Origin: Clostridiales bacterium | GTDB lineage: Bacteria > Bacillota > Clostridia > TANB77 > CAG-508 | Direction of reading: 5' to 3' | DNA length: 64,000 nucleotides | Assembly (NCBI GenBank): GCA_003525075.1 | Contig: DQFO01000016.1 | Span: 17,167-81,166 of the forward strand | Shown here: positions 3,001 through 6,000 of the stretch, one piece after another | Position numbering within the stretch: the first letter of the stretch is position 1 | Layout: every line of letters starts with the position of its first letter | Program-made: the position numbers

Positions 3001-6000
3001 TTCATAATTTTCTCCATCAGCAGCAGCTTTTAAGTTCTCAGCTGTTGTTCCAATTTCTCCACCATTTAATAATTTAAACCACATTTTTGCATGTTCTTTT
3101 TCATTATCAGATGTTTCTTGGAAAATTGCAGCTATTTGTTCATATCCTTCTTTTTTTGCTTTACTAGCAAAATATGTATATTTATTTCTTGCCTGAGATT
3201 CTCCGGCAAAAGCTGTCATTAAATTTTGCTCTGTTTTTGATCCTTTTAATTCCATAATTATTACCTCCTAATACTTTTTATCTATGCAAAATATCACATT
3301 ATTGAATTAAAGTCAATATTTTTTTTGATGTTCGAATAAAATTAAAAATACAACTTGTAATTTGTATTTTTGAATATTTATTTAAAAATTACTATTTATT
3401 CTTTGATAATTGTCTTATTTTTTCGTGATAAAAATAGTTTATTATTATAGGTTTTCCAGTAGGATTTTTAAAAAATGGTTCTTCATCTATAACATACATA
3501 AGTCCATTTTTATCTGCATACTCTTGTACTTTTTTATCTAACCCTTCCCAATAAGACATATCTTTTTTAGTATAAATCTTATTATACAAATCATTTAATT
3601 CAGGGTGTTTTTCTTTTATATAATTTATTATAGTAGGCTTAAATGTACCTCTTAAATTCAAGTTTTCAAGCCATATATAGTCGCAAAAGTCTTTTATTTT
3701 TTCTATTATAGTAAATACATCAGTAATACCAGGAAATATTGGAGAAATAAAACAAGTTGTTCTTATTCCTGCATCGTGAACTTGTTTCATTGCTTCAATT
3801 CTTGATTTTATTGTTGGTGCTGAATCCATATCTTTCTTAAATTCTTCATCTAATGTATTTATTGACCAAGCAACCAATGGATTAGGATATGTTTTTATCA
3901 AGTCAATATCTCTTGTAACTAAATTAGATTTTGTTGTTATAATTAAATTTATTCCACTTCCTTGCATTTCTTCTAAAAATGCTCTTGTTCTTTTATATTT
4001 TGCTTCGAAATAATTATATCCATCTGTTACAGATCCTACTATCATTGTTTTACTTTTATATTTTTCAGGATTTTTTATTTTATCCCACATCTTAACATCT
4101 AAAAACATTCCCCAATCTTCTTTATGTCCTGTAAATCTTTTCATAAATGTAGCATAACAATATTCACAACCAAAAGGGCAACCAACATAAGGATTTATTG
4201 AATATCCTGCTATTGGCAAGTTTGATTTTGTAAGAATTGTATCAACTTTCTTTTCTTTAATTACAACTTTTTTTAAATCTATCATTCTATTCCTCCAAAT
4301 TCTTTAGGAAATTCTTGAACAAACTCATCTTCTTTTAAAATTCCTAATAAATCTTCTTTCATAAATACAGGTATATTTTTCTCTTTTGCTTGATTGTAAA
4401 TGTTAAATACCCATTCTCTTTTTGATGATATTTTCCCTTTTCTATTACCTGTTTCAGTACCTATTACAATCCAAGAAATATTACTTAAATCTAATTTTCC
4501 TACATCATCAAACATAGGCTCAAAAGTAATATGGTAATGATTTGCTTTGATATTATTTCTTAAATAATCAATTCTTGTCTTTTCTTTTGAAGAAGTAACT
4601 GTTACACCAAACCAACCATTATCAGGAGTTTCTTTTAATTTAATATTTTCAGGTCTTTTAGTTAAAAAAATGTATTGCGTGTTTTCATTTTCTTTCATTT
4701 TAGAAAAAACTTTATCTTTCCATTCTTCATTCCAACCTGATAAGTCACTTTGTCCAGTTAGTAAATATGCCGTATGCCTTTTATTATCAAGCATTTTCAA
4801 TTTATTTTCAAAAAATACAGGCTTATTAAAATCATCAATAGTATGAAATCTATTATTATTCATTCTTGCATAGCAATACGAACATCCTATACTACATCCA
4901 ATTACTATATTTATATTTTTTATTGTATCTTTAATACATTGCAATTTTCTTTCTCCTTAAATTTATTATAATTTTGATTTGTAAAATTCACCAAATGAAG
5001 CCATTATATCTAACATTTTACTTAATTCTAATCCTAAATCAGTCATTCCATATTCAACTTTTGGTGGATTCGTATGATAATCCTTTCTAAAAATAATACC
5101 ATCACTTTCTAATTGCCTTAAACTATCTGTTAATACTTTTTGTGATATTCCATTCAATGACTTTTGCAACTCATTAAATCTCCATGTTCTTTTTGTTAAA
5201 TTTCTTATTATCAACAATTTCCACTTATTTCCTACTAAAGATATTGTAGTTGCAACAGGACATTCTGGTAATTCATTTATATTTCTCATTTTGATACTCC
5301 TTACTAATTTATTGATATTGTATCACATATTATTAATTTGACAAGTAGTTACTTTAAAGTGCGTACTTGTTTTATTGTATGTACTTTGATATAAATTCGT
5401 TATACTAATATTTAAGGAGGAATTTAAAATGTCAAATTTTATGAAAGTAAGTTCAGAAAGTGCACATAGAGTTGAATTACACGAAAAATTAGGTTTAACA
5501 GGTGCTGAAATTAGCATCAACACTATTGGAGCAGGAGAAAGTGTACCTTTTATTCATTCTCATAAACAAAATGAAGAAATTTATTATGTTATAAGTGGTT
5601 CTGGCAAAGCTATTATTGACAACGAAGAAGTTAATTTAGTTACTGGTGATTGGGTAAGAATATCTCCAGTAGCAGAAAGACAATTTTTTGCTAACAAAAA
5701 CAATGCAATTTCTTACATTTGTATTCAAGTAAAAGAAAATTCTCTTGAAGGATTTACTGCAAATGATGCCATTATAAAATAAATGAAAAAATCTCTGAAA
5801 GTATAATCTTTCGGAGATTTTTATTACTATAAAATTGTAATTTGTAACTATACTTAAAAGTTTAAGTTGTAGCTATAAATTATTTTTTATATCTATAATA
5901 GAGGTAAATATAAATGATTTTATCCCTAATTCATTTGCTACAATAACATTTTTTTCTTTGTCATCGAAAAATAATGTTTCCTCTTTATTTAAACTAAATC

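What the first reader, a model, noticed from the sequence alone, without database searches (positions are those of the whole stretch)
3392..5289. Translationally coupled pair of CxxxCxxC proteins (SPL/photolyase-like radical SAM plus Gp37/Gp68-like DUF5131) under a divergent HxlR regulator
Two adjacent genes overlap by ATGA and both carry a canonical radical-SAM-type cysteine triad near the N-terminus (GCPFGCEYCYA and GCSIGCSYCYA). The first resembles spore-photoproduct-lyase-like enzymes. The second matches the phage Gp37/Gp68 family (FLTKRPE, WIVIGTETG) but lacks the usual N-terminal segment. From memory, DUF5131 proteins are often found beside a conserved partner protein of about 300 aa, and this pairing may be a variant of that. 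The function of the module is unknown. Placement between peroxide-defence genes (rbr, dfx) and an HxlR-type redox/electrophile regulator suggests DNA or nucleotide damage repair under stress.
Basis: partly seen in the sequence, partly recalled or inferred. Interest (0 to 1): 0.55.

Follow-up and report, generated by a model that had tools for sequence, protein, structure and literature searches.

The report
Catalogued mobile radical-SAM enzyme pair
The two cysteine-motif genes are the already catalogued but functionally unknown "radical SAM mobile pair", here carried with an HxlR regulator and a cupin gene on a 2.5-kb cassette that recurs almost unchanged in many gut bacteria.

Summary
The core observation holds. 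On the minus strand, a 220-aa DUF5131 protein (A, 4944..4282) overlaps a 297-aa radical SAM protein (B, 4285..3392) by ATGA. Both carry CxxxCxxC, conserved in every homologue checked. The pair is already catalogued as NCBIfam TIGR04471/TIGR04470, "radical SAM mobile pair protein A/B"; its function is unknown. Three reader details are wrong:
- HxlR is not divergent. It is the first gene of the same operon and diverges from a cupin gene.
- A does not lack an N-terminal segment.
- The rubrerythrin/desulfoferrodoxin neighbours are not conserved.

New here: A is followed by B in 75 of 80 related loci, with lineage-specific regulators (HxlR, MarR, AraC) and accessory enzymes (cupin, flavin reductase, MBL-fold hydrolase). 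A 21-nt palindromic operator is invariant between hxlR and the cupin gene. Cupin-HxlR-A-B forms a sharply bounded 2.5-kb cassette, 97-100% identical in 12 species-level assemblies with unrelated flanks. It is joined to its neighbours at a motif, ACAAATTACAA|KTT, that also separates adjacent genes, giving an integron-like array.

Most likely mechanism (inferred): a stress-induced two-enzyme system of the spore-photoproduct-lyase clade acting on damaged nucleic acid. Detoxification of a small molecule is almost as likely.

The parts
3352..3365 (-). Downstream cassette junction motif ACAAATTACAAGTT. Shared DNA with other genomes ends after ...ACAA.
   Evidence: identity with 12 species-level loci stops here. 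The flanks beyond it differ in at least 9 ways.
3392..4285 (-). Protein B, 297 aa: radical SAM mobile pair protein B (SplB/COG1533-related). Cluster motif C36-x3-C40-x2-C43; further invariant C178 and C201.
   Evidence: TIGR04470 438.3 bits (cut-off 410). PF04055 64 bits; cysteines invariant; best PDB fold hit is spore photoproduct lyase (weak, TM 0.43-0.48).
4282..4285 (-). ATGA overlap: the stop codon of A overlaps the start codon of B (translational coupling). RBS GGAGG at 4296..4292.
   Evidence: read directly from the sequence; the same overlap geometry is seen in the near-identical loci (A ends where B starts).
4282..4944 (-). Protein A, 220 aa: DUF5131-type radical SAM mobile pair protein A. 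Cluster motif C17-x3-C21-x2-C24; near-invariant C3.
   Evidence: PF07505 111.5 bits. TIGR04471 338.7 bits, full length, 16 bits below the 355 cut-off; cysteines invariant; model pLDDT 82.8 with a partial-barrel radical-SAM-like fold.
4966..5289 (-). HxlR-family regulator, 107 aa, with a single Cys10 in an ECPV motif. First gene of the hxlR-A-B operon (21-nt gap to A).
   Evidence: PF01638 96 bits; closest named families are RrpB/RrpA, below their cut-offs; an HxlR gene lies within 1.3 kb of A in 49/80 loci.
5317..5344 (-). Promoter-like site for hxlR-A-B: TTGTCA, 16-nt spacer, TG-n-TACAAT.
   Evidence: consensus scan only; the extended -10 TGnTAYAAT is conserved in 8 loci.
5347..5367 (.). Candidate operator AGTTACTTTAAAGTGCGTACT, the core of the 30-nt palindrome at 5341-5370, lying between the divergent hxlR and cupin genes.
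   Evidence: palindrome; the 21 nt are invariant in 8 loci whose surrounding intergenic DNA has diverged.
5429..5782 (+). Cupin_2 protein, 117 aa, divergent from hxlR and part of the same mobile cassette.
   Evidence: PF07883 38 bits; found with the co-directional HxlR in 16 loci; lies inside the shared 2.5-kb block.
5786..5822 (.). Hairpin (13-bp stem, one mismatch) followed by a T-run after the cupin stop codon; a likely terminator.
   Evidence: Read from the sequence. The consensus scan did not call it.
5832..5845 (-). Upstream cassette junction motif ACAAATTACAATTT. It belongs to the 3' end of the preceding HAD cassette; the pair cassette begins at TTTTATAG.

Best explanation
SHOWN
- The region is a minus-strand operon, hxlR - A - B, plus a divergent cupin gene.
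- A and B are the catalogued "radical SAM mobile pair" (NCBIfam TIGR04471/TIGR04470). A is a 220-aa DUF5131 protein. B is a 297-aa SplB/COG1533-related protein. Each has an invariant CxxxCxxC.
- A and B are translationally coupled by an ATGA overlap.
- The four genes form one 2.5-kb cassette (~3349-5845) that recurs at 97-100% nucleotide identity in different genomes, always joined at the motif ACAAATTACAA|KTT.
- A 21-nt invariant palindromic site lies next to the hxlR promoter.

INFERRED
- HxlR has a single N-terminal Cys, as in thiol-based electrophile/oxidant sensors of this family. It binds the operator and switches the operon and the cupin gene in response to a reactive small molecule.
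- A and B are then made in equal amounts. Each binds a [4Fe-4S] cluster and cleaves SAM to a 5'-deoxyadenosyl radical.
- They act together on one substrate.
- My preferred substrate class (about 0.35) is a covalently damaged or adducted nucleic acid base or crosslink in strict anaerobes, reversed by H-atom abstraction and bond scission as in spore photoproduct lyase.
- The lineage-specific flavin reductase would supply electrons.
For: Identity:
- TIGR04470 438 bits against a cut-off of 410; TIGR04471 338.7 bits, full length.
- PF07505, PF04055, PF01638.
- RefSeq names the same pair on plasmids.

Pairing: A is followed by B in 75/80 loci. Cysteines are conserved in 81/81 A and 74/74 B ORFs.

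Regulation:
- 21-nt gap between hxlR and A, and no promoter-like site inside that 21-nt hxlR-A gap.
- The operator is invariant in 8 diverged loci.
- A dedicated regulator is present in most loci: HxlR 49, MarR 12, and an MBL-fold gene in 9 that goes with a divergent AraC-type regulator.

Mobility; plasmids pMMCAT and pSRC6.

Nucleic-acid inference:
- B matches the PA0069 (118 bits) and Rv2578c (97 bits) families.
- Its best solved fold is spore photoproduct lyase.
- COG1533/SplB-like genes are SOS-regulated or linked to repair genes in several lineages (PMC8565304, PMC3765255, PMC4929162).
- DUF5131 and SPL share one megacluster of the superfamily (PMC9477430).
- Both proteins are mildly basic, pI 8.2 and 8.9.
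- A flavin reductase lies immediately upstream of A in about 30 loci.
Against: - No member of either family has been characterised. Full-text searches found none.
- B is far from true SPL: TIGR04070 19.5 bits against 400; no PDB hit by sequence or profile; fold TM only 0.43-0.48 on a model of mean pLDDT 72 whose N-terminal 66 residues are poorly predicted.
- The pair is not under LexA-type control here, and no DNA-repair gene is consistently adjacent. Tag glycosylase appears in only 6/80 loci.
- The partner enzymes (cupin, flavin reductase, MBL-fold hydrolase) and regulators (HxlR, MarR, AraC) are equally typical of small-molecule detoxification.
- A falls 16 bits below its NCBIfam cut-off.
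- A is broken in one same-species contig (L085), so the module is dispensable.
Confidence: 0.6

Rival explanations
1. Small-molecule detoxification or resistance. A and B transform a toxic xenobiotic, antibiotic, or diet- or host-derived electrophile. The cupin, flavin reductase or MBL-fold hydrolase carries out accessory steps. HxlR, MarR or AraC senses the compound.
For: - The regulator types and accessory enzymes are those of inducible detoxification operons.
- Near-identical cassettes in 12 species-level assemblies suggest recent selection.
- The pair lies on conjugative or mobilizable plasmids, next to a chloramphenicol acetyltransferase gene on pSRC6.
- The authors who described pMMCAT suggest resistance to toxic molecules as one option (bioRxiv 10.1101/2024.04.29.590671).
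Against: - No candidate compound has been identified.
- Both enzymes fall in the SPL/DUF5131 clade, whose other members are tied to DNA or phage contexts.
- The accessory enzymes differ between lineages while A and B stay constant.
- The adjacency to cat is a single case.
Confidence: 0.3
2. Nucleic-acid modification for phage defence or counter-defence. Like other DUF5131 proteins in defence islands and phages, A (with B) modifies DNA or RNA bases.
For: - A matches the PADLOC candidate-system components PDC-M30B and PDC-M41B at about 110 bits.
- Distant DUF5131 genes occur in phages, some beside methyltransferases.
- B matches phrog_13321 at 250 bits.
Against: - The PADLOC hits are no stronger than the generic Pfam hit, so they are family-level only.
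- The mobile-pair subfamily itself is essentially absent from the phage collection. The best true phage hits are about 31% identical; one 5.5-kb "Bacteriophage sp." fragment is 54% identical.
- No defence genes recur beside the pair.
- Control by small-molecule-responsive regulators is unusual for defence systems.
Confidence: 0.1
3. Peptide, protein or cofactor maturation: radical SAM enzymes modifying a ribosomal peptide or an enzyme.
For: The pMMCAT authors raise this option. Weak fold hits include SuiB and SkfB.
Against: No SPASM/twitch domain and no RiPP recognition element were found. No conserved small precursor ORF or protein substrate gene recurs across the five neighbourhood types.
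Confidence: 0.05
4. One reading: a peroxide-stress DNA-repair module functionally tied to the flanking rubrerythrin and desulfoferrodoxin genes and controlled by a divergent HxlR.
For: In this window the rbr and dfx genes follow B directly. The same order is seen in same-species contigs.
Against: - rbr/dfx lie outside the shared cassette.
- They sit on the other side of it in L002 and L006.
- They are replaced by other genes in L085, L091 and L101 (L085 and L091 are same-species contigs), and are absent within 8 kb in L001 and L010.
- HxlR is co-directional with the pair.
Confidence: 0.05

Closest known systems
Radical SAM mobile pair system (NCBIfam/TIGRFAMs TIGR04471 protein A, TIGR04470 protein B, TIGR04472 MarR regulator)
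   Same: Same two protein families in the same A-then-B order, with the same cysteine motifs and the same sporadic, plasmid-borne distribution.
   Different: This instance uses an HxlR regulator placed upstream instead of the TIGR04472 MarR, and carries a cupin gene. A scores 338.7, just under the 355 cut-off. The family has a name but no known function.
Spore photoproduct lyase SplB (TIGR04070; PDB 4FHC/4FHE/4FHF)
   Same: Radical SAM partial barrel with CxxxCxxC. It is the best solved-structure match for B and lies in the same COG1533 neighbourhood.
   Different: 19.5 bits against a cut-off of 400. No sequence or profile hit to the PDB. B works with an obligate second radical SAM partner. 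The hosts are gut anaerobes and include non-sporulating groups such as Prevotella, Bacteroides and Treponema.
PA0069 / Rv2578c SplB-like radical SAM proteins (NF033668, NF038135), SOS-regulated in several phyla
   Same: The closest named relatives of B (118 and 97 bits). The literature links them to DNA repair.
   Different: B is far below their cut-offs (360 and 430). It is not LexA-linked here and is paired with DUF5131. Those families are also biochemically uncharacterised.
DUF5131 (phage Gp37/Gp68, COG4422) with its TcmP partner (TIGR04474); PADLOC candidates PDC-M30 and PDC-M41
   Same: A is a clear PF07505 member and hits PDC-M30B/M41B.
   Different: The partner is a second radical SAM enzyme, not TcmP (no TIGR04474 hit). 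Phage DUF5131 proteins are only about 25-32% identical to A.
Integron gene-cassette arrays
   Same: Unidirectional, mostly one- to two-gene units of 0.2-3.8 kb. Each ends in a conserved site where units are exchanged between strains and species. Same-species contigs differ in which cassette occupies a slot.
   Different: The conserved part of the site is only 11-14 nt rather than a 60-140-nt folded attC. No integrase lies next to the array. Many cassettes bring their own terminator/promoter. The host is a low-GC, gut-derived bacterium known only from metagenome assemblies.
HxlR-family thiol/electrophile-responsive regulators (HxlR, YodB, HypR, QorR, RrpA/RrpB)
   Same: PF01638 winged helix, a single N-terminal Cys, and a palindromic site next to divergent promoters.
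   Different: Below the cut-offs of the named RrpA/RrpB families. The inducer and the sign of regulation are unknown.

Membership tests
Radical SAM mobile pair (TIGR04470/TIGR04471/TIGR04472) | Protein B reaches the curated TIGR04470 equivalog cut-off | tested here: met
   438.3 bits against 410, residues 9-292 on model positions 1-284 of 285.
Radical SAM mobile pair (TIGR04470/TIGR04471/TIGR04472) | Protein A reaches the curated TIGR04471 equivalog cut-off | tested here: inconclusive
   338.7 bits against 355 (E 1e-101, residues 3-216 on model positions 2-215 of 220). This is the best hit by far but 16 bits short. A ~59%-identical homologue is named "mobile pair protein A" by NCBI, as are the ~56%-identical plasmid copies in RefSeq.
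Radical SAM mobile pair (TIGR04470/TIGR04471/TIGR04472) | A and B encoded as an adjacent tandem pair | tested here: met
   ATGA overlap. B follows A in 75/80 loci; two of the five exceptions are contig ends.
Radical SAM mobile pair (TIGR04470/TIGR04471/TIGR04472) | Sporadic, laterally transferred distribution | tested here: met
   97-100% nucleotide identity in 12 species-representative assemblies with unrelated flanks. Bacteroidales pMMCAT plasmids and Selenomonas pSRC6.
Radical SAM mobile pair (TIGR04470/TIGR04471/TIGR04472) | Associated TIGR04472 MarR-family regulator | tested here: not met
   There is no MarR in the window. The regulator is HxlR (PF01638). MarR occurs in 12 of the 80 loci.
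Radical SAM superfamily | CxxxCxxC cluster motif and a Radical_SAM profile match | tested here: met
   B: PF04055 64 bits against 29.5. A: motif present and invariant, but PF04055 only 24.6 bits, below 29.5.
Radical SAM superfamily | [4Fe-4S] binding and reductive SAM cleavage | not testable with these tools
   Needs anaerobic biochemistry.
Spore photoproduct lyase (TIGR04070) | Equivalog-level sequence match | tested here: not met
   19.5 bits against 400; no PDB sequence or profile hit to SPL; weak fold resemblance only.
DUF5131 / Gp37-Gp68 (PF07505) | Pfam gathering threshold, near full length | tested here: met
   111.5 bits against 28.9, residues 7-197 on model positions 7-214 of 243. The N-terminus is therefore not missing.
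DUF5131 + TcmP pair (TIGR04474) | Neighbour is a TcmP three-Cys-motif partner protein | tested here: not met
   B has no TIGR04474 match at E <= 0.01.
Integron (considered for the surrounding cassette array) | IntI-type integrase adjacent to the array | tested here: not met
   the only tyrosine recombinase found among the window ORFs profiled and by tblastn with three recombinase queries is XerD, about 45 kb away. Xer-like recombinases abut the cassette in only 2-3 other loci.
Integron (considered for the surrounding cassette array) | attC sites (60-140 nt folded sites with R''/L''/L'/R' boxes) | tested here: inconclusive
   the conserved part is only 11-14 nt. The hairpins that follow in some loci contain a -35/-10 promoter. 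No attC model was available, and Rfam had no match.

The most novel reading that the evidence does not exclude
The radical SAM pair is cargo of an undescribed, integron-like cassette system in low-GC gut bacteria. Units of one to four genes each end in ACAAATTACAA. They are joined head to tail in same-strand arrays and swapped between strains and species at that site by a recombinase acting in trans, possibly Xer-like. Many units carry their own terminator/promoter module.
Probability: 0.35. Interest if true: 0.7.

Novelty: already known. Interest (0 to 1): 0.38.

Why it matters
The pair is one of the more widespread uncharacterised radical SAM systems in gut microbiomes. The exact A protein is indexed in 1,425 blocks of the assembly collection, and the pair sits on the pervasive Bacteroidales plasmid pMMCAT. 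Two SPL-clade radical SAM enzymes working as an obligate, stress-regulated, horizontally spreading pair would point to new anaerobic repair or detoxification chemistry. This analysis gives concrete handles for testing that: defined operon boundaries, a candidate operator, and the recurring electron-donor and accessory genes. Separately, the precise 11-14-nt junctions suggest a cassette-shuffling mechanism in Bacillota that resembles integrons but lacks their hallmarks. If real, it bears on how accessory genes move through the gut microbiome.

Tried and rejected
- Sequence and profile searches of the PDB with A, B and alignment A2 gave only noise.
- AlphaFold models plus Foldseek gave only generic radical SAM barrels for A (best E 4e-3) and a weak SPL match for B. 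There was no substrate clue.
- Full-text searches found no functional study. Terms tried: "radical SAM mobile pair", DUF5131, COG1533/COG4422/TIGR numbers, PA0069/Rv2578c, TcmP/PDC-M30, and the junction motif itself.
- PADLOC and PHROGs gave family-level hits of unknown function only.
- The phage collection holds essentially only distant DUF5131 relatives.
- The boundaries of the flavin-reductase-type module simply coincide with the ends of coding conservation, so they say nothing about a recombination site.
- I first read the hairpin after the motif in related loci as attC-like with covarying stems. Its conserved loop TTGAAA and the downstream TGnTATAAT fit a -35/-10 promoter overlapping a terminator, so I dropped the attC reading. 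Rfam has no family for it.
- An IS200/IS605-type single-strand transposition model was considered. No conserved subterminal hairpin precedes the motif.
- The hunt for a cognate recombinase was inconclusive.
- Apparent fusion proteins (P0031, P0136, P0146) are single short metagenomic contigs and were not trusted.
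Full report
OBSERVATION
All three genes of the finding lie on the minus strand.
- HxlR is at 5289..4966.
- A 21-nt gap follows, with RBS AAGGAG at 4958..4953.
- Protein A is at 4944..4282 (220 aa, TTG start).
- Protein B is at 4285..3392 (297 aa). Its ATG overlaps the TGA of A as ATGA, with RBS GGAGG at 4296..4292.
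- The quoted motifs are present: GCSIGCSYCYA in A (Cys17/21/24) and GCPFGCEYCYA in B (Cys36/40/43).

HxlR is not divergent from the pair. It is co-directional and is divergent only from a cupin gene at 5429..5782 (+).

IDENTITY
- Pfam assigns A to DUF5131/PF07505 (111.5 bits; residues 7-197 on model positions 7-214 of 243). The claimed missing N-terminal segment is therefore not seen.
- Pfam assigns B to Radical_SAM (64 bits) and the regulator to HxlR (96 bits).
- NCBIfam is more specific. B is TIGR04470, "radical SAM mobile pair protein B" (438.3 bits, cut-off 410). A is TIGR04471, "radical SAM mobile pair protein A" (338.7 bits, full length, cut-off 355).
- B also matches the PA0069 (118 bits) and Rv2578c (97 bits) SplB-like families, and true spore photoproduct lyase only at 19.5 bits against 400.
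- B has no match to TcmP/TIGR04474, the usual DUF5131 partner.
- RefSeq already annotates both proteins under these names on plasmids. A third family, TIGR04472, names a dedicated MarR regulator.
- The pair is therefore a catalogued system of unknown function. Full-text searches found no functional study. The only direct mention found is one sentence about the pMMCAT plasmid, speculating on resistance, protein modification or biosynthesis.

CONSERVATION AND CO-OCCURRENCE
- A has 779 relatives in the protein collection. B has more than 7,800.
- A scan of one genome per species found 436 relatives of A. Eighty loci were kept, from Clostridia, Bacilli/Erysipelotrichales, Oscillospiraceae, Lachnospiraceae, Prevotella and Treponema.
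- B follows A in 75 of the 80 loci. Of the five exceptions, two are contig ends. The other three include L024, where a second A-like gene sits in place of B.
- CxxxCxxC is present in 81/81 A and 74/74 B ORFs. Further invariant residues include C3 in A and C178/C201 in B.

NEIGHBOURHOODS
Five arrangements recur.
1. cupin(-) | HxlR-A-B, as in the window: 16 loci, plus 4 without the cupin.
2. Divergent HxlR | flavin reductase (PF01613)-A-B: 25 loci, plus 4 without the reductase.
3. Divergent AraC | MBL-fold hydrolase-A-B in Prevotella (9 loci) and on the Bacteroidales pMMCAT plasmids.
4. A MarR gene placed between or ahead of A and B: 12 loci, plus the Selenomonas plasmid pSRC6, where a cat gene follows B.
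5. No recognisable partner: 7 loci.

A and B are the constant core. The regulators are all small-molecule-responsive types. The accessory genes are redox or hydrolytic enzymes.

The rubrerythrin and desulfoferrodoxin genes that flank the pair in the window are not part of the unit. They lie on the other side of it in L002 and L006. They are absent within 8 kb in L001 and L010. They are replaced by other genes in L085, L091 and L101, of which L085 and L091 are same-species contigs.

REGULATION
- The hxlR-cupin intergenic region holds a 30-nt palindrome at 5341-5370.
- Its 21-nt core, AGTTACTTTAAAGTGCGTACT (5347-5367), is invariant in eight loci whose surrounding intergenic DNA has diverged. It lies just upstream of a promoter-like TTGTCA-16-TGnTACAAT (5344..5317), whose extended -10 is also conserved.
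- No promoter-like site lies inside the 21-nt gap between hxlR and A. hxlR-A-B is therefore most simply one transcript.
- The regulator has one cysteine (Cys10, ECPV). Forty-six of 52 HxlR-like ORFs in the loci carry the equivalent motif.
- Whether it represses or activates cannot be told from sequence.

MOBILITY
- BLASTN of the window against the loci shows a block at ~3349..5845 that is 97-100% identical in 12 species-representative assemblies (L001-L011, L026). These are mostly MAGs, so some mis-binning is possible. Their flanks are unrelated.
- Both ends carry the same minus-strand motif: ACAAATTACAAGTT at 3352-3365 and ACAAATTACAATTT at 5832-5845. Sequences diverge immediately after ...ACAA.
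- With at most one mismatch, the motif occurs five times in the window, all on the minus strand, at 3352, 5832, 6489, 8533 and 23115. The chance expectation is 0.64, and none of 100 shuffles reached five.
- All five sites lie in gaps after minus-strand genes. BLAST blocks shared with other loci end at them.
- Same-species contigs (99.7% identical) show allelic cassette replacement exactly at these sites. L095 has a 277-bp DUF3781 unit where the window has the 657-bp HAD unit. L085, L091 and L101 differ beyond the 3352 site.
- L085 joins the cassette's right end to a copy of its left end (ACAAATTACAA|TTTTATAG), a tandem or circle-type junction.
- A composite empty site exists. The end of a sigma-factor-like ORF is joined directly to gene X in L006. 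The pair cassette follows the same ORF in L101 and precedes X in L026.
- Across 47 low-GC sources (516 kb, partly redundant) the 11-mer occurs 136 times on the gene strand and 4 times on the other strand. It delimits 33 distinct units of 187-3,811 bp, almost all with same-strand ORFs.
- The cassette encodes no recombinase. The only tyrosine recombinase I found in the window is XerD at 54096..54989. Xer-like recombinases abut the cassette in L009 and L021.
- In several related loci the motif is followed by a hairpin. Its loop (TTGAAA) and the downstream TGnTATAAT look like a promoter overlapping a terminator. Rfam has no match.

STRUCTURE AND REMOTE HOMOLOGY
- Neither protein has a sequence relative in the PDB.
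- The model of A (pLDDT 82.8) resembles radical SAM partial barrels only weakly: NifB, lysine 2,3-aminomutase and MiaB, with E about 4e-3.
- The model of B (pLDDT 72.5, poor before residue 67) has spore photoproduct lyase as its best hit (E 1e-4, TM 0.43-0.48).
- RadicalSAM.org places DUF5131 and SPL in the same megacluster.
- COG1533/SplB-like genes are reported as SOS-regulated, or as linked to ImuB-C, uracil-DNA-glycosylase-type genes or archaeal NreA.
- COG1533 genes are also among those shared between genera in chicken and pig gut isolates.

MECHANISM
Shown:
- operon structure and translational coupling;
- conserved cluster motifs;
- obligate pairing of A and B;
- a dedicated regulator with a conserved operator;
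- cassette mobility.

Inferred:
- a thiol-reactive signal acts through HxlR;
- A and B are made in equal amounts;
- each cleaves SAM, and they act jointly on one substrate.

I favour a damaged or adducted nucleic-acid substrate (about 0.35) because of the clade both enzymes belong to. Small-molecule detoxification is nearly as likely (about 0.3) because of the regulators, accessory enzymes and plasmid context. Phage-related nucleic-acid modification (about 0.1) and peptide or protein modification (about 0.05) are weaker.

VERDICT
The finding is real but is a rediscovery of a named, uncharacterised system, and some anatomical details were wrong. Three things add value here: the regulatory and neighbourhood map, the rejection of the rbr/dfx context argument, and the unexpected integron-like cassette junctions. 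The junctions deserve their own follow-up.

Noticed in passing
window 3352-3365, 5832-5845, 6489-6502, 8533-8546, 23115-23128 (all minus strand); possibly 9060-9073: A strand-specific motif, ACAAATTACAA|KTT, sits after successive minus-strand genes. It splits ~1.7-9.1 kb into units (rbr-dfx; cupin-HxlR-A-B; HAD; GNAT/YoaP + acyltransferase; DUF5301) that are exchanged independently between strains and species. This is an integron-like array with no adjacent integrase.
   Followed up: partly
L005:1108, L006:6613/8010/8749, L007:4710, L009:545, L012:6558, L026:2916/5194, L085:2866: In related loci the junction motif is followed by a hairpin with variable, complementary stems and a conserved loop AAGTTGAAA, then a T-run and TGnTATAAT. 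It looks like a compact terminator-plus-promoter module at cassette starts. Rfam has no match.
   Followed up: partly
window 1652-2232: Two short ORFs (77 and 99 aa) after the desulfoferrodoxin gene. Same-species contigs L084 and L088 carry a 389-aa flavodiiron-type gene (Lactamase_B/ODP) and a 45-aa rubredoxin gene at this position, so I take the two ORFs to be its remnants. Similarity to those contigs ends at window 1741.
   Followed up: partly
L085:6502-7163: In one same-species metagenomic contig, protein A is split into 93-aa and 77-aa fragments while B is intact. The pair is therefore dispensable in at least some strains.
   Followed up: no
L024:7491-9761; L016:7012-7899: Variant architectures. 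L024 has flavin reductase-A-MarR-A' (a second A-like protein, 288 bits to TIGR04471) and no B. L016 has an extra PA0069-like radical SAM paralogue directly upstream of A-MarR-B.
   Followed up: partly
L082 (Selenomonas ruminantium plasmid pSRC6) 6558-9614; L081 (pMMCAT) 4270-11015: On plasmids the pair lies near small serine recombinase genes. On pSRC6 it lies directly upstream of a chloramphenicol acetyltransferase gene. On pMMCAT a RhuM gene is nearby; RhuM genes also occur near the cassette in L009 and L101.
   Followed up: no
L009:635-738: An azaaromatic (yjdF) riboswitch (98 bits) lies inside one of the motif-flanked units upstream of the pair cassette.
   Followed up: no
window 28869-32055: D-Ala-D-Ala ligase, VanW-like and histidine kinase genes sit in a row, a layout resembling a glycopeptide-resistance-type cluster.
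   Followed up: no
window 16794-21567: By eye from the translations (not profiled): an ABC-transporter ATPase (255 aa) and large permease (699 aa) next to a histidine-kinase-like (338 aa) and response-regulator-like (227 aa) gene, resembling peptide-antibiotic sensing/efflux modules.
   Followed up: no
window 51050-52261 and 54096-54989: A Y-family (DinB-type) DNA polymerase gene, and a XerD tyrosine recombinase gene (348 bits against a cut-off of 329.6). A 2-mismatch copy of the junction motif lies at 55054-55067, just upstream of xerD.
   Followed up: no
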